Assembly (NCBI RefSeq): GCF_036507355.1 | Contig: NZ_AP027877.1 | Origin: Escherichia coli | GTDB lineage: Bacteria; Pseudomonadota; Gammaproteobacteria; Enterobacterales; Enterobacteriaceae | Reading direction: 5' to 3' (one strand) | DNA length: 64,000 nucleotides | Shown: positions 7,536-64,000 of the stretch, piece after piece | Layout: each line of letters begins with the position of its first letter | How positions within the stretch are numbered: position 1 is the stretch's first letter | Notes under the pieces: generated by a model | What the model saw: the letters and a program-made list of their open reading frames with translations, nothing else | Database searches by the model: none | What the model was told of the DNA's origin: nothing | Made by a program: the position numbers and the translations under genes

Positions 7536-8948
7536 ATGTCACTCAGTCGGCGTCAGTTCATTCAGGCATCGGGGATTGCACTTTGTGCAGGCGCTGTTCC
7601 CCTGAAGGCCAGCGCAGCCGGGCAACAGCAACCGCTACCCGTTCCGCCGCTGCTTGAATCTCGCCGTGGGCAACCGCTGTTTATGACTGTACAACGTGCG
7701 CACTGGTCATTTACGCCAGGGACACGCGCGTCGGTCTGGGGAATCAATGGTCGTTACCTGGGGCCGACTATCCGCGTCTGGAAGGGCGACGATGTTAAGC
7801 TTATTTACAGCAACCGCCTGACAGAAAATGTCTCAATGACGGTGGCCGGGCTACAGGTACCAGGTCCGCTGATGGGCGGTCCGGCACGGATGATGTCGCC
7901 AAACGCTGACTGGGCACCCGTACTGCCTATTCGCCAGAACGCAGCTACTCTGTGGTATCACGCCAATACTCCCAACCGCACGGCTCAGCAGGTCTATAAC
8001 GGCCTTGCCGGAATGTGGCTGGTGGAAGATGAAGTCAGCAAGTCGCTGCCTATCCCCAACCATTATGGTGTGGATGATTTTCCGGTCATTATCCAGGATA
8101 AACGGCTGGATAACTTTGGTACGCCAGAATACAACGAACCGGGAAGCGGCGGCTTTGTTGGTGATACGCTGCTGGTTAACGGTGTACAAAGCCCGTACGT
8201 TGAAGTCTCGCGTGGCTGGGTGCGCTTGCGACTGCTGAACGCGTCGAACTCTCGTCGCTATCAACTACAGATGAGCGATGGTCGCCCGTTACATGTGATT
8301 TCTGGCGATCAGGGATTCCTGCCTGCTCCTGTATCGGTGAAGCAACTTTCGTTGGCACCGGGCGAGCGCCGCGAGATTCTGGTGGATATGAGCAACGGTG
8401 ATGAAGTGTCGATCACCTGTGGCGAAGCGGCGAGCATTGTTGATCGTATTCGTGGCTTCTTTGAGCCATCCAGCATTCTGGTTTCTACCCTGGTGCTAAC
8501 GCTGCGCCCAACCGGCCTTCTGCCGCTGGTCACAGACAGTCTTCCGATGCGCCTGCTGCCAACTGAAATCATGGCCGGTTCGCCGATTCGCAGTCGCGAT
8601 ATCAGTCTGGGTGATGACCCGGGTATTAATGGACAACTGTGGGACGTCAACCGTATTGATGTCACCGCGCAGCAAGGAACGTGGGAACGCTGGACGGTAC
8701 GCGCGGACGAGCCGCAAGCGTTCCATATTGAAGGCGTGATGTTCCAGATCCGTAACGTGAATGGTGCGATGCCGTTCCCGGAAGACAGAGGCTGGAAAGA
8801 TACCGTTTGGGTTGACGGACAAGTGGAGCTGCTTGTTTATTTCGGTCAGCCTTCCTGGGCGCACTTCCCGTTCTACTTCAACAGTCAGACGCTGGAAATG
8901 GCGGACCGTGGCTCGATTGGGCAACTGTTAGTCAATCCGGTACCGTAA
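7536..8948 (+). CDS. ftsP: Cell division protein FtsP (SufI), Tat-exported multicopper-oxidase-like
   Basis: 470-aa ORF starting MSLSRRQFIQASGIALCAGA (twin-arginine signal); recognised as FtsP/SufI. Confidence 0.95.
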   Translation: MSLSRRQFIQASGIALCAGAVPLKASAAGQQQPLPVPPLLESRRGQPLFMTVQRAHWSFTPGTRASVWGINGRYLGPTIRVWKGDDVKLIYSNRLTENVSMTVAGLQVPGPLMGGPARMMSPNADWAPVLPIRQNAATLWYHANTPNRTAQQVYNGLAGMWLVEDEVSKSLPIPNHYGVDDFPVIIQDKRLDNFGTPEYNEPGSGGFVGDTLLVNGVQSPYVEVSRGWVRLRLLNASNSRRYQLQMSDGRPLHVISGDQGFLPAPVSVKQLSLAPGERREILVDMSNGDEVSITCGEAASIVDRIRGFFEPSSILVSTLVLTLRPTGLLPLVTDSLPMRLLPTEIMAGSPIRSRDISLGDDPGINGQLWDVNRIDVTAQQGTWERWTVRADEPQAFHIEGVMFQIRNVNGAMPFPEDRGWKDTVWVDGQVELLVYFGQPSWAHFPFYFNSQTLEMADRGSIGQLLVNPVP

Positions 8949-56118: not shown

Positions 56119-57801
56119 ATGGTTACCTGGACCCAAATGTATATGCCGATGGGAGGACTGGGGCTATCCGCTCTGGTTGCCCTGATCCCAATAATATTCT
56201 TCTTCGTTGCACTTGCGGTATTACGTCTGAAAGGACATGTCGCCGGAGCGATAACCCTTATATTATCTATCCTGATTGCGATATTCGCCTTTAAAATGCC
56301 GATTGATATGGCATTTGCTGCTGCGGGCTATGGCTTTATTTATGGTTTATGGCCAATTGCGTGGATTATTGTCGCGGCGGTGTTCCTGTATAAATTAACC
56401 GTTGCCAGCGGACAGTTCGATATTATCCGCAGCTCGGTTATCTCCATCACCGACGATCAGCGTTTGCAGGTGTTACTGATTGGTTTCTCCTTTGGTGCGT
56501 TGCTGGAAGGAGCGGCTGGCTTTGGTGCGCCGGTGGCGATTACCGGTGCGCTGCTGGTGGGCCTGGGCTTCAAACCGTTATACGCGGCGGGGCTGTGTCT
56601 GATTGCCAATACTGCGCCGGTGGCGTTTGGTGCGTTGGGCGTGCCGATTCTGGTCGCCGGTCAGGTAACGGGAATCGATCCGTTCCACATTGGCGCAATG
56701 GCGGGACGTCAGTTACCGTTCCTGTCGGTTCTTGTGCCGTTCTGGCTGGTAGCAATGATGGACGGCTGGAAAGGGGTGAAAGAGACGTGGCCAGCGGCGC
56801 TGGTTGCTGGGGGAAGCTTCGCTGTCACTCAGTTCTTTACCTCTAATTATATTGGTCCGGAACTGCCGGATATTACTTCGGCGCTGGTGAGTATCGTCTC
56901 ACTCGCTTTATTCCTTAAAGTCTGGCGGCCGAAAAATACCGAAACGGCAATCAGCATGGGACAATCCGCAGGTGCGATGGTGGTAAATAAGCCATCTTCT
57001 GGCGGTCCCGTACCTTCAGAATATAGTCTGGGGCAAATCATTCGAGCGTGGTCACCGTTTTTAATCTTAACGGTGCTGGTCACCATCTGGACCATGAAGC
57101 CGTTTAAAGCGTTATTTGCTCCGGGCGGCGTGTTTTATTCACTGGTGATTAATTTCCAGATCCCTCATTTGCATCAACAAGTGTTGAAAGCGGCACCCAT
57201 TGTCGCCCAACCAACGCCAATGGATGCGGTGTTTAAATTCGACCCCCTCTCGGCTGGCGGCACCGCTATTTTTATTGCGGCGATTATCTCTATCTTCATC
57301 CTCGGCGTGGGCATCAAGAAAGGGATTGGCGTCTTTGCCGAAACGCTAATTAGTCTGAAGTGGCCGATATTGTCGATTGGCATGGTGCTGGCGTTCGCCT
57401 TCGTCACCAACTATTCCGGCATGTCCACCACGCTGGCGCTGGTACTGGCAGGTACAGGCGTGATGTTCCCGTTCTTCTCACCGTTCCTCGGTTGGCTGGG
57501 GGTATTCCTTACCGGCTCGGACACTTCTTCAAACGCCCTGTTTGGTTCACTGCAATCGACCACGGCGCAGCAAATCAACGTCTCTGACACTCTGCTGGTG
57601 GCAGCAAATACCAGCGGCGGCGTAACTGGCAAGATGATCTCCCCGCAATCTATCGCCGTGGCCTGCGCCGCGACGGGCATGGTGGGCCGAGAATCTGAAC
57701 TGTTCCGCTACACCGTGAAGCACAGTCTGATTTTTGCCAGCGTTATCGGCATTATCACGCTGCTGCAGGCGTATGTGTTTACTGGAATGTTAGTCTCGTA
57801 A
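56119..57801 (+). CDS. glcA: Glycolate/lactate permease (LctP family)
   Basis: 560-aa polytopic [37 protein letters not shown]...; recognised as GlcA. Confidence 0.95.
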
Positions 57802-58170: not shown

Positions 58171-58455
58171 GTGCCCATGAGCGGTAAGCGTTATCCCGAA
58201 GAGTTTAAAATTGAAGCAGTCAAACAGGTTGTTGATCGCGGTTATTCTGTTGCCAGCGTTGCAACACGTCTCGATATCACCACCCACAGCCTTTACGCCT
58301 GGATAAAGAAGTACGGTCCGGATTCTTCCGCTAATAAAGAACAGTCAGATGCTCAGGCCGAGATCCGCCGTCTCCAGAAAGAGCTGAAGCGGGTTACCGA
58401 CGAACGGGACATATTAAAAAAAGCCGCGGCGTACTTCGCAAAGCTGTCCGACTGA
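58171..58455 (+). CDS. IS3-family transposase OrfA (HTH domain)
   Basis: 94-aa ORF MPMSGKRYPEEFKIEAVKQVVDRGYSVASVATRLDITTHSLYAWIKKYG... with leucine-zipper-like C-terminus typical of IS3 OrfA. Confidence 0.9.
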   Translation: MPMSGKRYPEEFKIEAVKQVVDRGYSVASVATRLDITTHSLYAWIKKYGPDSSANKEQSDAQAEIRRLQKELKRVTDERDILKKAAAYFAKLSD

Positions 58456-59324
58456 GGTACGCCTTTATCCGTGACAACACCTGTTGCTGGCCTGTTCGCC
58501 TGCTCTGTCGGGTGCTGGATGTTCATCCCAGTGGTTTTTACGCCTGGCTTCAGCAGCCGCATTCACAACGCCATCAGGCAGACCTGAGGCTGACAGGGCA
58601 GATTAAACAGTTCTGGCTGGAATCGGGATGCGTCTATGGTTATCGCAAAATCCATCTGGATCTGCGGGACAGCGGGCAACAGTGCGGAGTGAACAGAGTC
58701 TGGCGACTGATGAAACGTGTCGGGATAAAGGCTCAGGTCGGATACCGGAGCCCGCGGGCACGTAAAGGCGAGGCCAGTATCGTGTCGCCCAACAGGCTCC
58801 AGCGACAGTTCAATCCGGATGCTCCGGATAAGCGTTGGGTAACGGACATAACCTACATCAGGACCCACGAAGGCTGGCTGTATCTTGCCGTGGTTGTTGA
58901 TCTGTTCTCACGCAAAATTATCGGCTGGTCCATGCAATCCCGGATGACAAAGGACATTGTCCTGAACGCACTGCTGATGGCTGTATGGCGCCGTAATCCC
59001 CAAAAACAGGTGCTGGTTCATTCGGATCAGGGCAGTCAGTACACAAGCCATGAGTGGCAGTCGTTCCTGAAATCACACGGCCTGGAGGGCAGCATGAGCC
59101 GTCGCGGTAACTGCCATGATAATGCGGTTGCAGAAAGCTTTTTCCAGTTGTTGAAACGCGAACGGATAAAGAAAAAGATCTACGGAACGCGGGAAGAAGC
59201 CCGCAGCGATATTTTTGATTACATCGAAATGTTTTATAACAGTAAGCGTCGGCATGGTTCCAGCGATCAGATGTCACCGACAGAATATGAAAACCAGTAT
59301 TATCAACGGCTCGGAAGTGTCTAG
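58416..59324 (+). CDS. IS3-family transposase OrfB (DDE integrase core), expressed as OrfAB fusion by -1 frameshift
   Basis: -1 frame is open from the slippery site; contains WVTDITYIRTHEGWLYLAVVVDLFSRKIIGWSM, HSDQGSQYTS and CHDNAVAESFF DDE-core motifs; the first in-frame ATG is at 58512. Confidence 0.85.
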   Translation, partial: KKSRGVLRKAVRLRYAFIRDNTCCWPVRLLCRVLDVHPSGFYAWLQQPHSQRHQADLRLTGQIKQFWLESGCVYGYRKIHLDLRDSGQQCGVNRVWRLMKRVGIKAQVGYRSPRARKGEASIVSPNRLQRQFNPDAPDKRWVTDITYIRTHEGWLYLAVVVDLFSRKIIGWSMQSRMTKDIVLNALLMAVWRRNPQKQVLVHSDQGSQYTSHEWQSFLKSHGLEGSMSRRGNCHDNAVAESFFQLLKRERIKKKIYGTREEARSDIFDYIEMFYNSKRRHGSSDQMSPTEYENQYYQRLGSV

Positions 59325-59339
59325 ATTACCCGTGGCGAT

Positions 59340-59555
59340 TCAGTCATCAGTAATTACGCTGTCATCCAGTTTCGCATAACAGATACTGTCATCACCGGCT
59401 TCAATATAGCTGGAAAAATTCTCACTGATGAAGCGGTAGAAAAGGGCACCGAGTACATACTGTTTAAAATCCCATCCATCTACGGAGCCTCTGACATCAT
59501 TGGCAATGGCCCAGATTTGGCGGTGTAGCTCTGCACGCTGCTGAAGGCTTGTCAT
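59340..59555 (-). pseudogene. hsdM: Truncated type I restriction-modification methyltransferase (hsdM) N-terminal remnant
   Basis: 71-codon ORF MTSLQQRAELHRQIWAIANDVRGSVDGWDFKQYVLGALFYRFISENFSSYIEAGDDSI... matches the N-terminus of type IC HsdM (EcoR124-like) as I recall it, then runs directly into the IS right end. Confidence 0.7.
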
Positions 59556-59758
59556 TTTGTATCCTGTTGTATGATTCTTAAGTACTGTTATTGGCCCGAT
59601 TTTATCGTAATTTCATATTGATGACAGGCTTTGTATGTCATACGTTGCACTGAGAGTTCGTTTGCCCGGTTGTGTAGGCAGCGCTCTTTCAGCCAGGTCA
59701 GTAGAAACGTTGCGCTGACGATAAATACTGAAGCCCCAATACCATCGGGGCTGAACGT

Positions 59759-61636
59759 TCAGTCGGTGAGAATTTCTTCATCCGTATCCATTGTGGATGG
59801 TGATGAATCTATTTTTGTTGTAAGAAATACCCGATTCAGTAGTCTTTGCTTCAGGGCGTTTCTTCGCTCATTGTAGAACTCCGGGAAGCGACTGAACTCA
59901 ATATTTTCATCTGAAACTAACAGCATTGATGGCGAATAGTTGTTTGATGGCTGAGATAGCCATTGTTTCAGGGAAGTATCCTGTTTACTTATATTCTGAG
60001 AGTGATTCAGTAAATGAAGATTAGGTATGGTGTCCCAGTGCTCCGGATTTTCATAAAAGCTGAGGTTCTCTGGTGTATTCGCAACATAATCTAATTTTTC
60101 AAGATATTTCTTTGAAAAATGATTTCTTGGGTGAAGGTGATCAATATGAAACACCTCGGTCGGATTCATTTCAGGGAACAGAAGATGCAATAGTGCGCGG
60201 CAACGACCTTCGCCATATCTGATATTGAGAAGGCTTTCGATGTATTCGTCGTCAAATCTGAGGTCTTTATTCGAGCCTTTATATCTGTCAATAATCTTCT
60301 CAAGAGGAAAGTGAATATCTGAAAGACTATTTTTCATTACATCTCTGATACTCGTGAGTAGCGCATCTGCCTGGCTTCCAAAGATCCCTTTCAGAAGTAC
60401 CATGTAAAACCACTGGCTAATTACTGAGCGTTCATTGTGGTTTTTATTCAGGAGATTAATCGTTGTATATAATGGATGTCCACTGGTTTGCTTTTTGTAA
60501 AGCCAGTAGACCACAGGAATGACTGCATTTTTAGATATCAAAGACTGTGGATTGATGCCGAATCGCCTGATAAGAATAAAGGTCTCCTTGATACAGGATT
60601 TTATTTCAGACCATTGTTGTTGTATCTTACCGACCTCCTCTGAAGTGAAGTTTTTTACTTTGAACCGGACGTCAGAGTCAATAAGCATCAGGCTGGTTTT
60701 TAAGAACCAGTCTCTTTCAATATAAAAACCCATTTCATTATTCTGATAAATGTTTTTTGTCAGTTCATCCAGTTCTTTTCTGAAATCACCCTGCCAGTGC
60801 GCTACCGCTATTGACATCAGTAAGTCTGAAAACTCAAGTTTTGTCCCCCCGCTGTTCGTGCGGATGAAAACATCCAGCACATGATCAATGTCCTGACTGC
60901 TCTCATTGAAGTAGTGGATAAGATTCTCAGTTCTTATCTTGGTATAAAGTTTAAGCAGAGTTTTTCTGGAAAATTCACTGGAAATGAGATCTCTTTTTTC
61001 AAGTTCTGGTACGACAACGTTAAATAAAATATCATCAGGCGAATCATGTTGCTCGTATTTGAATATTTCGTGCAGGCAGAACCAGTGATGTTTGTTATCG
61101 GCAAGTGAATCAGTATATTGCTTCTCGGTCAGGAACCTGAAGTTATACTTCATCATGAGCTCATCGTCTGACTTAAGTGGCGCGGTTAAATCGACGTAAA
61201 GCTTTCTGGGTGGCAGGATGCGATCATCCTGTGCCGAAGGCCACCACATCCGGGGCTGTTTATACGCATACGTTCCACACAATCCAATATATAATGATGT
61301 GAGACGCTGCTGACCATCAATCACGGCCTTGAAATCATGAAACCCAGCATTTGTTGCTACGCAGGGGTTTTCTTCATTAAATCGCTGACAGTATTCTTTC
61401 AGGAACTCATAGAATTTGTAATCATTTTTAATACTGGCACTACGGATATCCCACATCATGAAAGAGTTTATCGGGTAGTCTCGCATGATGGAATCAAACA
61501 GCAAACATATCTGACTGCTGCTCCAGACGAACTTCCTCTGAATTGCAGGCAGAAGATAGTGGCGTAAATTAATTGAATCTATCGCTTGTTTTATCGTTAT
61601 TGCTTTTTCATACTGGCCAGCCATCATAAACCTCAT
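59759..61636 (-). CDS. DUF262/DUF1524 (GmrSD-like) putative type IV restriction / defence nuclease
   Basis: 625-aa ORF; N-terminal DUF262 signatures (LPAIQRKFVW, LFDSIMRDYPINSF, VIDGQQRLTSLYIGL); C-terminal His-Me/HNH-like DUF1524 region (HIDHLHPRNHF ... NLHLLNHSQN). Confidence 0.8.
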   Translation of the reverse strand: MRFMMAGQYEKAITIKQAIDSINLRHYLLPAIQRKFVWSSSQICLLFDSIMRDYPINSFMMWDIRSASIKNDYKFYEFLKEYCQRFNEENPCVATNAGFHDFKAVIDGQQRLTSLYIGLCGTYAYKQPRMWWPSAQDDRILPPRKLYVDLTAPLKSDDELMMKYNFRFLTEKQYTDSLADNKHHWFCLHEIFKYEQHDSPDDILFNVVVPELEKRDLISSEFSRKTLLKLYTKIRTENLIHYFNESSQDIDHVLDVFIRTNSGGTKLEFSDLLMSIAVAHWQGDFRKELDELTKNIYQNNEMGFYIERDWFLKTSLMLIDSDVRFKVKNFTSEEVGKIQQQWSEIKSCIKETFILIRRFGINPQSLISKNAVIPVVYWLYKKQTSGHPLYTTINLLNKNHNERSVISQWFYMVLLKGIFGSQADALLTSIRDVMKNSLSDIHFPLEKIIDRYKGSNKDLRFDDEYIESLLNIRYGEGRCRALLHLLFPEMNPTEVFHIDHLHPRNHFSKKYLEKLDYVANTPENLSFYENPEHWDTIPNLHLLNHSQNISKQDTSLKQWLSQPSNNYSPSMLLVSDENIEFSRFPEFYNERRNALKQRLLNRVFLTTKIDSSPSTMDTDEEILTD

Positions 61637-61697
61637 ATGTTATATTAGCTGGCCTATTTTAATTTATTGCGTGTCGGTAGTACAGTCTTTGCACAAA

Positions 61698-62027
61698 CTA
61701 ATTTATGCAATGGAAAAGCTGACGGCTCGGTTTGTGTTTTTCATTCGGGTAGACTCGCATTGCGGATGCACAAAGTGATGAAACCTGTCTTGCTATATTT
61801 TTACCGAAGTTAACAAGTAGGCCGTGCTTTATTTTTTCACCCTCTGCCCTGATGCTGATGACAAAGCTGAACTGATATACGATTACCTCAATGAGGTCAT
61901 TGCCAAATGTTATGATGGCGGCGTTGTTTATTTCATATTCATAATCCCTCAGGTCAGTGTTAAGTCTTGCTGTTGCATTTACAAGTGCGTATTCTTTATC
62001 GATAATCATAACTTTCTCACTTATCAT
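61698..62027 (-). CDS. Hypothetical small protein (109 aa)
   Basis: ORF with ATG start between the WYL regulator and the DUF262/DUF1524 gene on the same strand; no recognisable motif. Confidence 0.45.
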   Translation of the reverse strand: MISEKVMIIDKEYALVNATARLNTDLRDYEYEINNAAIITFGNDLIEVIVYQFSFVISIRAEGEKIKHGLLVNFGKNIARQVSSLCASAMRVYPNEKHKPSRQLFHCIN

Positions 62028-62067
62028 GTTAATGTGATTTAATCATCACTAATAATATGTTGTGATT

Positions 62068-62781
62068 TTAATTACGATTATTCGTCTGTTTACTCCCGTA
62101 ATGCATTATCTGATGAATAATGTTCATGTGGGGTAAGGCTTCCATAAAGTCAGACTGTTCAATCAGCGAAATGAGTGTGTTATCGATCTCAAACGTTGTA
62201 TCCGGTAATACCTCAACCAGCCTGATTCGGGACAGGGAAATAACGAACACGCCCGATGACGTACATCCGGCAAGAAACCACTCCGCATGGCTGCAAAGCA
62301 GACGATAGGGATGAACGGTATGGCTGACGTTTTCGTCGGTTCTGATACGCACCTTGGTCTGGTTAAGTATGGCGAGCGTTAGTCTGCTGAAATCACCGAA
62401 CAGCGTGGGTTTCTGGCGCGGCTCCGGGAGCATAATCCGGTAGGGTGAAGGGTGCTCCCCGTCAAGCAGAAGGCTCAGCAGTTTGGCATCCATCGCGGGT
62501 AACAGACGGTCAAGATGCAGCAGTCTCGCCAGTATCTTCATATCTCGTTCCGTGCGGCGACGAAAGTAATGTGAGGCAAGCTGATACACGCCGTTGCTCT
62601 GTTCAATATCAAGGTAGGTCAGACGGACGTTGAAATCCCGCCGCAGCGTTCGCGTTGTCACTCCAAATTCTTCTGCCAGCGTCCCGATATGCAGCTTTTC
62701 ACCCTGAAACAAACGGCTCAGGATGATGGAAAGGCGGGTTGCCAGTCTGTCATGTTCGTTTTCTTGTGTTATCAGCGTCAT
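62068..62781 (-). CDS. WYL-domain transcriptional regulator (HTH + WYL), BrxR/CapW-like
   Basis: 237-aa ORF; N-terminal HTH (IGTLAEEFGVTTRTLRRDF); central W[YF]L-type region (HPYRLLCSHAEWFLAGCTSSGVFVISLSRIRLVEVL). Confidence 0.7.
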   Translation of the reverse strand: MTLITQENEHDRLATRLSIILSRLFQGEKLHIGTLAEEFGVTTRTLRRDFNVRLTYLDIEQSNGVYQLASHYFRRRTERDMKILARLLHLDRLLPAMDAKLLSLLLDGEHPSPYRIMLPEPRQKPTLFGDFSRLTLAILNQTKVRIRTDENVSHTVHPYRLLCSHAEWFLAGCTSSGVFVISLSRIRLVEVLPDTTFEIDNTLISLIEQSDFMEALPHMNIIHQIMHYGSKQTNNRN

Positions 62782-62883
62782 ACATCATTTCCGAATTTAG
62801 CCGGGAAATGATGCCAGCAGTAGCGGACAGGATTTGTCCACCCTCTGAAGTTTTTTAAAGTCTGAATACCTTAAATGTAAGTG

Positions 62884-63633
62884 CTAAACGTCAGTATTCT
62901 CAGGTGAATAAAGATGCTTCTGGCGCATGTAGGCAATAAAAATGCAGGATGGTAGCGTCACCCGGTATGCGGGACCGGCTAAATCAATCAGCAGCCAGAG
63001 AGAACTGAGCACCCAGCCCACAGGACCGGCAAAAGCGCCCATGGTACGCGTCAGCATGGCATTTCCTGCAACGGTCAGCCCTCTGCCTAACAGGGCTTTC
63101 GCCACACCATTTGTGACAACAAGTGCCATCTGATAGGCCGCAAACCCGGATGTTTTTATCCCCGCCTGGATTGCCATGGTCAGCAACTCCGGCGTGGGGT
63201 TGCTGTAGCCTGTCTGCAATTCTTCCGCCACGGTCTTTAACTGATCGGGCGTCATCTTCTCAAGGCTTTTCTCCAGGATCTTCATCAGCAGATTCATTTC
63301 AATGGTTTCAACACTGGATTTGTTGTTGTAGTTCACCTTCATTTTATCGCAGGCATCGGTGAGAATTTCCCGGTACGGCACCCCTTTACCCCAGCGGAGC
63401 AGCGTGGCAAAGCTGTTCGCCCCAAACGTCTGAACCTCGGCGGCAATGGCATCCCAGTAGCGCGGGTGGTTGGGCTTGTGTTTTTTATACTGAGGATCAT
63501 AGGTCAGCGTTTCCGTGATGCGTGCCAGTCCGTCTTTCGGATCGCAGATAAGCACAGAAACCAGTAAATCCAGATCGTCACGATGGCAGTGGCGCAGAAA
63601 CTCAAGGTCGGGGTCGTGTCGGTAGGTAGCCAT
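62884..63633 (-). CDS. Hypothetical protein, possibly YaaW-like (UPF0174/DUF3944)
   Basis: 249-aa ORF; acidic N-terminal DDLDLLVSVL region and glycine-rich hydrophobic C-terminus (GAFAGPVGWVLSSLWLLIDLAGPAY); family assignment from memory, low certainty. Confidence 0.4.
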   Translation of the reverse strand: MATYRHDPDLEFLRHCHRDDLDLLVSVLICDPKDGLARITETLTYDPQYKKHKPNHPRYWDAIAAEVQTFGANSFATLLRWGKGVPYREILTDACDKMKVNYNNKSSVETIEMNLLMKILEKSLEKMTPDQLKTVAEELQTGYSNPTPELLTMAIQAGIKTSGFAAYQMALVVTNGVAKALLGRGLTVAGNAMLTRTMGAFAGPVGWVLSSLWLLIDLAGPAYRVTLPSCIFIAYMRQKHLYSPENTDV

Positions 63634-63707
63634 ATTTCACCTCATTGCAGATATTGGACCTGACAGTTTAAGGAAGCCACCGGACAGGGCTTGTCCGCCT
63701 GAAAAAC

Positions 63708-63745
63708 AAAAAAGTAAAAAAAACCTGCCGAAAGCAGGTTTCTGT
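63708..63745 (-). terminator. Rho-independent terminator for the partial minus-strand gene at the window end
   Basis: Hairpin AACCTGC-CGAAA-GCAGGTT; on the minus strand it is followed by a T-rich run (plus-strand AAAAAACAAAAAAGTAAAAAAA). Confidence 0.55.
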
Positions 63746-63776
63746 TCACCGGATGGAGGTATAACGCGTCGGGATT

Positions 63777-64000
63777 ACTTTCCGCGCCATTCCTTTTCCA
63801 CTTTATCCGCAAAAGCATCGCACTGCCGGGCATATTCCGGGTTATAGAGCAGCTCCGACTGCGAAAGCTGCATGGCGGTCATGCTGCCGTTACGGGCATT
63901 TGATTCGAGCCAGGTTCTGCCATAGGTTTTGTTCATCACCTGAAGTACCCGGTTGAATACCGGTCCGTTGAAGCGGGCATTGAGATTAACGCCTTTTACC
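63777..64000 (-). CDS. Partial CDS (C-terminal 74 codons), unknown product; gene continues beyond window end
   Basis: Open minus-strand frame ending ...VLQVMNKTYGRTWLESNARNGSMTAMQLSQSELLYNPEYARQCDAFADKVEKEWRGK then TAA at 63777-63779, followed by the terminator. Confidence 0.55.

What the first reader, a model, noticed from the sequence alone, without database searches (positions are those of the whole stretch)
61698..62781. WYL-domain regulator paired with an unknown 109-aa ORF upstream of the nuclease
Seen in sequence: an HTH followed by a W[YF]L-type ligand-binding region, with a 41-bp gap to a small ORF and then 62 bp to the nuclease gene. The small protein has no recognisable motifs and could be an accessory or effector component.
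Basis: partly seen in the sequence, partly recalled or inferred. Interest (0 to 1): 0.5.

Follow-up and report, generated by a model that had tools for sequence, protein, structure and literature searches.

The report
Mobile-island backbone genes beside a swappable nuclease
The WYL regulator and the small unknown gene are real, but they belong to the conserved backbone of a pipolin-like mobile island in E. coli, and the nuclease next to them is one of several interchangeable defence cargos rather than their partner.

Summary
On the minus strand lie an HTH-WYL regulator (62068-62781), a small conserved gene (ORF 61698-62027; the start kept across the family gives 103 aa, 61698-62009) and a DUF262 nuclease gene (59759-61627/61636).

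The interpretation does not hold. The nuclease is a BrxU/GmrSD-type (PADLOC HEC-05) type IV restriction enzyme, which two preprints describe as acting without a partner protein. In Hafnia, Limnobaculum, Morganella and Kluyvera the same backbone is present, with the genes DUF2787, LRAT, a small DeoR HTH, YaaW, WYL and the small ORF in that order. Homology there stops within a few bases of the small ORF's stop codon, and different cargo follows.

Distant relatives of the small ORF (26-47% identity) sit in a true pipolin next to the piPolB gene, and in gut-metagenome elements between a DUF927 primase-helicase and an integrase, with no DUF262 gene.

The small protein is usually basic and under purifying selection. 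Its predicted ferredoxin-like fold is closest to IS200/IS605 TnpA and RAYT, but it lacks the HUH and tyrosine catalytic motifs. Its biochemical role is unknown; a DNA-binding role in the element's life cycle is my guess.

A palindrome, GGACA-N5-TGTCC, occurs only upstream of the WYL and YaaW genes. It is a candidate operator. Overall this is an ordinary new member of a published element class.

The parts
62068..62781 (-). HTH-WYL transcriptional regulator, 237 aa. It is a short form: wHTH, linker, WYL beta-barrel and two C-terminal helices, without a full WCX domain.
   Evidence: Pfam HTH_DeoR and WYL, PADLOC WYL E 4e-15. Profile hit to PafBC WYL domains, E 2e-7. AF2 model pLDDT 70.7. Foldseek top hits are PafBC, CapW, BrxR and DriD. 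It is about 60 aa shorter in the WCX region than 300-aa relatives.
61698..62009 (-). Small conserved backbone gene, 103 aa (the longest ORF runs to 62027, 109 aa). Predicted ferredoxin-like beta-alpha-beta-beta-alpha-beta fold, closest to Y1 HUH transposases but without their catalytic motifs. It is the last gene of the conserved island module.
62825..62839 (.). Palindrome GGACA-N5-TGTCC, 43 nt upstream of the WYL start codon. Candidate operator. A -10-like CATCAT (62808-62813, minus strand, with TG upstream) follows after 11 nt.
   Evidence: Only 2 matches in 64 kb, with 0.05 expected. Arms are invariant and the spacer varies across genera, while the flanking intergenic DNA diverges. In all related loci it is present only at these two positions.
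63682..63696 (.). Second copy of the GGACA-N5-TGTCC palindrome, 48 nt upstream of the YaaW start codon. A -10-like TAAACT (63665-63670, minus strand) follows after 11 nt.
62884..63633 (-). YaaW/DUF3944 (JukA-like) backbone gene directly upstream of the WYL gene. It carries the same palindrome in its promoter region.
   Evidence: Pfam DUF3944 and Ubiq_cyt_C_chap; PADLOC JukA E 6e-72. 92-99% identical across genera. No JukB among the neighbours.
62028..62063 (-). Conserved 36-nt non-coding block between the WYL gene and the small ORF. It contains the palindrome TGATTaAATCA (62035-62045). Function unknown; possibly a promoter or operator for the small ORF.
   Evidence: Near-invariant from E. coli to Hafnia and Limnobaculum while the adjacent WYL C-terminus diverges. 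The palindrome changes by a compensatory pair to CGATTaAATCG in Limnobaculum.
62783..62813 (-). 10-bp perfect inverted repeat, CATCATTTCC-N11-GGAAATGATG, abutting the WYL start codon. It is either an RNA hairpin covering the Shine-Dalgarno sequence, or its left arm is the -10 element.
   Evidence: RNA fold -14.5 kcal/mol, z -2.9.
59759..61627 (-). BrxU/GmrSD-type (HEC-05) type IV restriction enzyme gene. This is cargo, not part of the backbone.
   Evidence: GmrSD_N E 2e-33; HEC-05 E 5e-231. BrxU 7P9K E 5e-99 over the full length, with DGQQR and HxDHxxP retained.
59340..59555 (-). First 71 codons of hsdM, the remnant of the type I R-M cargo that follows the nuclease gene in intact relatives.
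   Evidence: HsdM_N E 5e-9. Intact hsdMSR in L001 and L002.
58171..59324 (+). ORFs of an IS3-family insertion sequence that cuts off hsdM.
   Evidence: HTH_Tnp_1 E 4e-20; rve E 1e-33.

Best explanation
The WYL regulator and the small ORF are the last two genes of the conserved backbone of a pipolin-like integrative island. The full backbone, seen in relatives, runs: integrases, a DUF927 primase-helicase in place of piPolB, two orphan genes, DUF2787, LRAT, a small DeoR HTH, another orphan, YaaW, WYL, small ORF. The defence cargo slot begins immediately after the small ORF's stop codon. In this lineage it holds a stand-alone BrxU-type type IV restriction enzyme plus a type I R-M system, which here is cut by an IS.

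Inferred: the WYL protein is a dimeric wHTH regulator that binds the two GGACA-N5-TGTCC palindromes at its own promoter and the YaaW promoter. By analogy with CapW, DriD and PafBC it would switch state when its WYL domain binds a ligand such as ssDNA.

Inferred, with low confidence: the small protein is a nucleic-acid-binding factor for the element's own life cycle, meaning excision, integration directionality or replication control. It is usually basic and has a TnpA/RAYT-like fold without catalytic residues. Only the backbone-versus-cargo assignment is shown. The biochemical role of the small protein is a guess.
For: - Backbone versus cargo. The same gene order, with 69-99% identical small ORFs and 82-99% identical WYL proteins, is seen in E. 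coli, Enterobacter, Pseudocitrobacter, Mixta, Hafnia and Limnobaculum; Morganella and Kluyvera carry partial or truncated copies of it. DNA homology ends within a few nt of the small ORF stop, and the downstream genes differ.
- Link to pipolins. In a true pipolin (L018, whose 864-aa gene matches DNA_pol_B_2 at E 1e-5 and is 88-94% identical in DNA to E. coli genes annotated as type-B polymerase), integrase, two orphans, DUF2787, LRAT and the small ORF are homologous to the E. coli island at 29-56% identity.
- Published context. PMC11551731 describes gammaproteobacterial pipolins as bimodular. The core is IntSXT, DUF2787, a WYL protein and orphan proteins, the defence cargo is exchangeable, and piPolB-less pipolin-like islands exist.
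- Other contexts of the small-ORF family. It lies divergent from a 300-aa WYL/WCX gene and convergent with an 866-aa PolB-like gene. It also lies between a DUF927/HTH_56 primase-helicase and an integrase, with overlapping ORFs.
- Operator. BrxR likewise binds inverted repeats with a 5-bp spacer at two sites (PMC9122601).
- Small protein. Family pI is mostly 8-10.
Against: - In E. coli and close relatives WYL, the small ORF, DUF262 and hsdMSR are collinear, with short gaps and no predicted terminator. Read-through control of the cargo by the WYL promoter is therefore possible in this lineage.
- The small-ORF family is missing from the canonical E. coli pipolin examined (L031), so it is not a universal core gene.
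- The fold match to Y1 transposases is marginal (Foldseek E about 3e-3, TM about 0.5). The fold is a common ferredoxin-like one, and no HUH motif, catalytic Tyr or Pfam Y1_Tnp signal is present.
- No direct evidence shows which HTH protein binds the palindrome. A stand-alone DeoR-type HTH paralogue is encoded upstream.
- This window's own small protein has pI 7.8, not clearly basic.
Confidence: 0.72

Rival explanations
1. One reading: WYL regulator, small protein and DUF262 nuclease form one three-gene defence system, with the small protein as an accessory, effector or immunity component of the nuclease.
For: The three genes are collinear and tightly spaced, with no predicted terminator. The junction between the nuclease gene, the small ORF and the end of the WYL gene is intact in about 108 of 5426 E. 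coli genomes, and the trio occurs in several Enterobacteriaceae. WYL regulators are known next to BrxU in pEFER (PMC9122601).
Against: The cargo after the small ORF is swapped in four genera, with the break at the stop codon. Distant family members occur without any DUF262 gene. BrxU/HEC-05 is described as functioning independently. Natural IS knock-outs exist in both directions.
Confidence: 0.06
2. The small protein is a regulatory partner of the WYL regulator, for example an anti-repressor, co-regulator or signal relay, forming a two-gene control module of the island.
For: It lies directly downstream of WYL in the enterobacterial islands. It is divergently paired with a canonical WYL/WCX gene in L023. 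A strongly conserved non-coding block with a palindrome showing a compensatory change lies between the two genes. It evolves faster than its neighbours.
Against: Family members occur with no WYL gene nearby: after LRAT in pipolin L018, and between primase-helicase and integrase in gut elements. Known WYL regulators (BrxR, CapW, DriD) need no small partner (background knowledge).
Confidence: 0.17
3. The small ORF is a spurious or decaying ORF with no function.
For: No domain hits. Frequent IS disruption in E. coli. The highest dN/dS in the module.
Against: dN/dS of 0.24-0.29 indicates purifying selection. The family is conserved down to 26% identity, with invariant L20, G69, L98 and F99 and near-invariant Y7, R15, Y87 and Q97. 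The Shine-Dalgarno sequence and start are conserved. The AF2 fold is confident.
Confidence: 0.02

Closest known systems
Gammaproteobacterial pipolins and piPolB-less pipolin-like islands (Mateo-Caceres et al. 2024, PMC11551731)
   Same: Integrative island with tyrosine recombinases. Conserved core of DUF2787, a WYL protein and orphan genes. Exchangeable defence cargo such as type I R-M and GmrSD-like genes. Core genes are 29-56% identical to a true pipolin.
   Different: No piPolB; a DUF927 primase-helicase sits next to an integrase instead. An extra DeoR-HTH, orphan, YaaW and WYL block lies between LRAT and the small ORF. The small-ORF family is absent from the canonical E. coli tRNA-Leu pipolin checked.
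BrxR / CapW / DriD / PafBC wHTH-WYL regulators
   Same: N-terminal wHTH plus WYL beta-barrel. These are the best structural matches. The candidate operator is an inverted repeat with a 5-bp spacer present at two promoters, as for the BrxR R-BOX1 and R-BOX2.
   Different: It is only 237 aa and lacks most of the WCX domain. There is no sequence-level hit to the BrxR or CapW structures. It is encoded as a mobile-element backbone gene rather than as a dedicated regulator of one defence system. Its palindrome arms are 5-6 bp, against 11 bp for BrxR.
BrxU / GmrSD type IV restriction enzymes (HEC-05)
   Same: The downstream 622-aa protein aligns over its full length with BrxU (7P9K, E 5e-99) and keeps the DGQQR and HxDHxxP motifs. 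It is embedded next to a type I R-M system, as reported for GmrSD-like genes.
   Different: This comparison concerns the neighbouring cargo gene, not the flagged pair. The protein is a diverged homologue of BrxU (identity not computed) and its activity is untested.
IS200/IS605 TnpA and RAYT (Y1 HUH transposases)
   Different: No HUH motif on strand 3. No C-terminal helix carrying the catalytic Tyr. No Pfam Y1_Tnp signal. The small protein is about 25-50 aa shorter. This is a resemblance of fold only.

Membership tests
wHTH-WYL transcriptional regulators | N-terminal (winged) helix-turn-helix | tested here: met
   Pfam HTH_DeoR at 16-51, E 2e-6. The AF2 model has helices 9-53 and a beta-hairpin at 59-68.
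wHTH-WYL transcriptional regulators | WYL domain (Sm-like five-stranded barrel with the W[YF]L motif) | tested here: met
   Pfam WYL 21.9 bits against a 21.8 cut-off. PADLOC WYL E 4e-15. W168-F169-L170 present. PafBC WYL domains hit at E 2e-7. Five strands at 142-196. Foldseek hits to PafBC, CapW, BrxR and DriD.
wHTH-WYL transcriptional regulators | C-terminal WCX dimerisation domain | tested here: not met
   About 60 aa are missing relative to the 300-aa WYL/WCX relatives (P0126, L023). Only two helices follow the barrel.
wHTH-WYL transcriptional regulators | Binds an inverted repeat at its own promoter, with ligand (ssDNA) control through the WYL domain | not testable with these tools
   A candidate operator, GGACA-N5-TGTCC, was found and is conserved. 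Binding and ligand response need experiments.
BrxR family (sensu Picton 2022) | Sequence homology to BrxR | tested here: not met
   phmmer and a family profile against PDB sequences gave no hit to 7QFZ or 7T8K. Only fold-level similarity was found.
Pipolin | Primer-independent PolB (piPolB) hallmark gene | tested here: not met
   Intact relatives carry a DUF927 protein (E 4.5e-34) and have no PolB gene annotated in the fetched regions. The island is therefore 'pipolin-like', not a pipolin.
Pipolin | Core of IntSXT-type integrase, DUF2787, WYL protein and orphan proteins | tested here: met
   Integrase 46%, orphans 43% and 54%, DUF2787 46%, LRAT 56% and small ORF 29% identical to pipolin L018. 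Most of these genes lie beyond the window end and were seen in L001 and L002.
Pipolin | Bimodular: conserved core plus variable defence cargo | tested here: met
   PMC11551731.
GmrSD/BrxU type IV restriction enzyme (the neighbouring nuclease) | DUF262 with DGQQR, plus C-terminal DUF1524 His-Me finger, in one polypeptide | tested here: met
   GmrSD_N E 2e-33. The full-length alignment to BrxU retains DGQQR and HIDHLHP, against HVDHIYP in BrxU. Pfam did not report DUF1524 itself.
Y1 HUH transposase (IS200/IS605 TnpA, RAYT), for the small ORF | HUH metal-binding motif on strand 3 and catalytic Tyr on a C-terminal helix | tested here: not met
   Strand 3 reads SFVISIR, with no conserved His pair anywhere in the family. 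The protein ends after strand 4. No Y1_Tnp Pfam hit in 21 members.
Y1 HUH transposase (IS200/IS605 TnpA, RAYT), for the small ORF | Overall fold | tested here: inconclusive
Juk defence system (for the YaaW neighbour) | JukA together with JukB | tested here: not met
   JukA model E 6e-72. No JukB hit among eight neighbouring backbone proteins.

The most novel reading that the evidence does not exclude
The small-ORF family is a domesticated, catalytically dead Y1-transposase/RAYT-like DNA-binding protein, used by pipolin-like and DUF927-type integrative elements. It would act either as a new kind of recombination directionality or replication-origin factor, or as the factor that defines the cargo-exchange junction located at its own 3' end.
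Probability: 0.1. Interest if true: 0.6.

Novelty: new member of a known kind. Interest (0 to 1): 0.3.

Why it matters
- It corrects a tempting guilt-by-association reading. Genes next to a defence nuclease can be mobile-element backbone rather than defence components.
- It places the cargo slot of a pipolin-like island to within a few bases of the small ORF's stop codon.
- It gives a testable operator for the island's WYL regulator.
- It flags a small, rare protein family (37 clusters at 50% identity among 1.84 billion proteins) that accompanies two unrelated replication modules, piPolB and DUF927, and whose function is unknown.

None of this overturns current understanding.

Tried and rejected
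- Searches of the small ORF against Pfam, NCBIfam, PHROGs and PADLOC gave nothing significant, including 21 family members scanned singly and 8 distant members against PHROGs.
- A profile search of PDB sequences with the small-ORF family gave no hit even at E<=10.
- The AFDB50 fold library was unavailable.
- The genome-contig scan returned only 8 loci, so the census is small.
- An Rfam scan of 59000-64000 gave only a chance-level hit.
- The supplementary data of the pipolin paper are not held. I therefore could not check whether the small ORF is one of its named 'orphan' core clusters.
- Small ORF as antitoxin or immunity protein for the nuclease: rejected, because IS-disrupted copies coexist with an intact nuclease gene.
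- Active HUH nuclease: rejected, because the motifs are absent.
- The sigma-70 promoter scan gave no more hits than shuffled sequence.
- I did not try a fused-chain AF2 prediction of a WYL-small complex, because the tool returns no interface metrics.

Full report
**What is there**

The window is E. coli chromosome; positions 59700-62900 are 100% identical to strain GPEC1189. On the minus strand the genes run as follows.

- A YaaW/DUF3944 gene at 62884-63633.
- An HTH-WYL regulator at 62068-62781.
- A small ORF at 61698-62027.
- A DUF262 gene at 59759-61636.
- A 71-codon hsdM remnant at 59340-59555. It is cut by an IS3-family element (58171-59324) that abuts lldP.

**The regulator**

The evidence for an HTH-WYL regulator is consistent.

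- Pfam finds HTH_DeoR at residues 16-51 and WYL at 131-190, the latter just above threshold.
- A PADLOC WYL model matches the full length at E 4e-15.
- A profile of the family hits both WYL domains of PafBC.
- The AF2 model (pLDDT 70.7) has a wHTH, a poorly predicted linker, a five-stranded barrel and two C-terminal helices.
- All 24 of its Foldseek hits at E<=1e-3 are PafBC, CapW, BrxR or DriD.

It is a short form. About 60 residues of the WCX domain present in 300-aa relatives are missing. It also has no sequence-level hit to the BrxR or CapW structures.

**The small ORF**

The small ORF is a real gene of 103 aa, not 109.

- M7 is the only family-invariant start and is preceded by a conserved GAGA/GAGG/GGAG Shine-Dalgarno sequence.
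- The upstream ATG is absent in Hafnia and Limnobaculum.
- RefSeq annotates the 103-aa form.
- dN/dS is 0.24-0.29. That indicates purifying selection, but the gene evolves three to five times faster than the WYL gene (0.06-0.10) and YaaW (0.03-0.06).

The family is small: 76 clusters at 90% identity, all named members from Enterobacterales. An exhaustive profile search found only 37 clusters at 50% identity among 1.84 billion proteins. Across members down to 26% identity, L20, G69, L98 and F99 are invariant, and Y7, L9, R15, I27, L65, Y87 and Q97 are nearly so. Most members are basic, with pI 8-10; the window protein has pI 7.8.

**The nuclease**

The DUF262 protein matches PADLOC HEC-05 at E 5e-231. 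It aligns over its full length with BrxU (7P9K, E 5e-99) and keeps the DGQQR and HxDHxxP motifs. According to bioRxiv 10.1101/2024.01.29.577857, HEC-05 is BrxU, a GmrSD-like type IV restriction enzyme. Such genes are often embedded beside type I R-M systems. bioRxiv 10.1101/2024.04.04.588119 says HEC-05 and HEC-06 'function independently'. An accessory protein is therefore not expected.

**Comparative context**

Intact E. coli relatives (L001, L002) show an island with the following order:

1. tyrosine recombinases;
2. a DUF927 protein;
3. a co-oriented run of orphan 117 aa, orphan 143 aa, DUF2787, LRAT, a DeoR-type HTH of 79 aa, orphan 128 aa, YaaW, WYL and the small ORF;
4. DUF262 and hsdMSR.

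In Hafnia alvei and Limnobaculum the whole backbone through the small ORF is conserved. There YaaW is 92-96% identical, WYL 82-88% and the small ORF 69-72%. The genes after the small ORF differ between lineages and lie on the opposite strand.

| Lineage | Genes after the small ORF |
|---|---|
| Hafnia (L003) | 106-aa ORF, a 611-aa protein and an AAA_5/McrB-like 838-aa protein (PDC-M26A, E 7e-24) |
| Morganella (L014) | a membrane protein and a GHKL ATPase |
| Limnobaculum (L006) | three unknown proteins |
| Kluyvera intermedia (L015) | a CapP-like fragment |

DNA alignment shows homology ending within a few nt of the small ORF stop codon, and even the C-terminal tails of the protein differ.

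Within E. coli every departure from the trio that I inspected involves an IS. Genome counts here are estimates from sampled hit lists.

- About 33 genomes have an IS3 element inside the small ORF with the nuclease gene intact.
- About 33 genomes have an IS1-truncated nuclease gene with WYL and the small ORF intact.
- Strain ABWA45 has ISKpn26 directly after the small ORF.

**Distant relatives of the small ORF**

- P0086 (29% identity) lies in an element at the uvrC-pgsA/tRNA locus. The order is integrase, orphans, DUF2787, LRAT, small ORF, then convergently an 864-aa PolB-like gene, an HTH_17 excisionase-like gene and a second integrase. That 864-aa gene matches DNA_pol_B_2 at E 1e-5 and is 88-94% identical in DNA to E. 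coli genes annotated as type-B DNA polymerase. This is a pipolin. Its integrase, two orphans, DUF2787 and LRAT are 43-56% identical to the E. coli island proteins.
- P0081 (43% identity) lies divergent from a canonical 300-aa HTH-WYL-WCX gene and convergent with an 866-aa PolB-like gene.
- P0097 and P0104 (30-36% identity) lie in gut-metagenome elements, between a DUF927/HTH_56 primase-helicase (phrog_8841) and an integrase, with overlapping ORF ends.
- The canonical E. coli tRNA-Leu pipolin I inspected has no family member, so the gene is frequent but not universal.

PMC11551731 describes exactly this architecture for gammaproteobacterial pipolins. The core near the integration site comprises IntSXT, DUF2787, a WYL protein and orphan proteins. 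The defence cargo is exchangeable. The paper also reports piPolB-less pipolin-like islands.

**Fold of the small protein**

AF2 with 25 family sequences gives pLDDT 78.7 and pTM 0.71. The topology is beta1, alpha, alpha, beta2, beta3, alpha, alpha, beta4.

- Foldseek independently ranks RAYT and the ISDra2, IS200 and IS608 TnpA proteins first, but only at E 3e-3 to 1e-2 and TM about 0.5.

The defining catalytic features are absent. Strand 3 reads SFVISIR, with no conserved histidines. The chain ends after strand 4, so there is no Tyr-bearing helix. No member hits Pfam Y1_Tnp. I therefore treat this as a fold resemblance that suggests nucleic-acid binding, not as family membership.

**Regulatory DNA**

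- *Palindrome.* GGACA-N5-TGTCC occurs exactly twice in 64 kb, against 0.05 expected. One copy is 43 nt upstream of the WYL start codon and the other 48 nt upstream of the YaaW start codon. In all 13 related loci carrying this module it occurs only at these positions. The arms are invariant while the spacer and the distal intergenic DNA diverge.
- *Promoter layout (inference).* Each palindrome is followed after exactly 11 nt by a -10-like hexamer: TG-n-CATCAT for WYL and TAAACT for YaaW. No -35 element is evident, so the palindrome sits where -35 would be. That fits a repressor like BrxR or CapW, or a -35-replacing activator like PafBC or DriD. BrxR's experimentally defined sites are also inverted repeats with a 5-bp spacer at two promoters (PMC9122601).
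- *Which protein binds is untested.* A stand-alone HTH paralogue, DeoR-79, is encoded upstream.
- *Block before the small ORF.* A 36-nt block between WYL and the small ORF (62028-62063) is nearly invariant across genera. Its palindrome shows a compensatory change. Its role is unexplained.
- *Inverted repeat at the WYL start.* A 10-bp perfect inverted repeat abuts the WYL start codon. As RNA it folds at -14.5 kcal/mol with z -2.9, but its left arm may simply be the -10 element.

**Conclusion**

The regulator and the small ORF are backbone genes of a pipolin-like integrative island. The BrxU-type nuclease and the type I R-M system are cargo inserted directly after the small ORF.

In this lineage, co-orientation and the absence of a predicted terminator leave open the possibility that backbone transcription reads into the cargo. 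That would be opportunistic, because in other lineages the cargo is convergent.

The small protein's biochemical role remains unknown. My best guess is a DNA-binding role in excision or replication. It rests on three observations: the family's position between the replication gene and the integrase in the gut-metagenome elements, its usually basic character, and its fold. A role as a partner of the WYL regulator is the main alternative.

Noticed in passing
window 62884-63633 (minus strand); L001 16075-20093: The YaaW/DUF3944 gene matches PADLOC JukA at E 6e-72, but no JukB is found among the neighbouring backbone genes. It is a 92-99% conserved backbone gene and shares the GGACA-N5-TGTCC palindrome with the WYL promoter. 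It may be a JukA-like sensor used by the mobile element rather than part of a Juk defence system.
   Followed up: partly
window 58171-59555 and 56119-57801: The type I R-M cargo is destroyed in this strain. hsdM is cut after 71 codons by an IS3-family element (HTH_Tnp_1 plus rve ORFs), which is followed by lldP. Intact relatives carry hsdMSR there.
   Followed up: partly
L021 (E. coli SC516), L030 (NT1F10), L029 (ABWA45), L022 (plasmid pEC22-NDM-5): There is recurrent IS traffic at this junction: IS3 inside the small ORF, IS1 inside the nuclease gene, and ISKpn26 exactly after the small ORF stop. An IS-scrambled copy of the WYL, small-ORF and DUF262 segment sits on NDM-5 plasmids next to a type II Zorya system.
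   Followed up: partly
L014 (Morganella morganii) about 8650-8730: The 3' half of a tRNA-Phe sequence directly abuts a YaaW gene truncated to residues 117-249. This suggests a deletion or recombination that removed the rest of the backbone.
   Followed up: no
window 61615-61654: An inverted repeat with a 7-bp perfect core (GGCCAGC/GCTGGCC) brackets the Shine-Dalgarno sequence and start codons of the BrxU-like gene. It could be a translational control hairpin or chance.
   Followed up: no
L001 16536-16775 (beyond the window end): A 79-aa stand-alone DeoR-type HTH matches the N-terminal part of the PADLOC WYL model (E 3e-6). It looks like a paralogue of the WYL regulator's DNA-binding domain and is an alternative candidate binder of the palindrome.
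   Followed up: no
window 62028-62063: A non-coding block between the WYL gene and the small ORF is nearly invariant across genera. Its palindrome TGATTaAATCA changes by a compensatory pair in Limnobaculum. No explanation yet.
   Followed up: partly
L031 (E. coli HCM-25C-3 pipolin at tRNA-Leu): This canonical E. coli pipolin has different 106-aa and 130-aa orphan genes and a 308-aa HTH regulator where the small-ORF family would be expected. The small-ORF family is therefore patchy among pipolins.
   Followed up: partly
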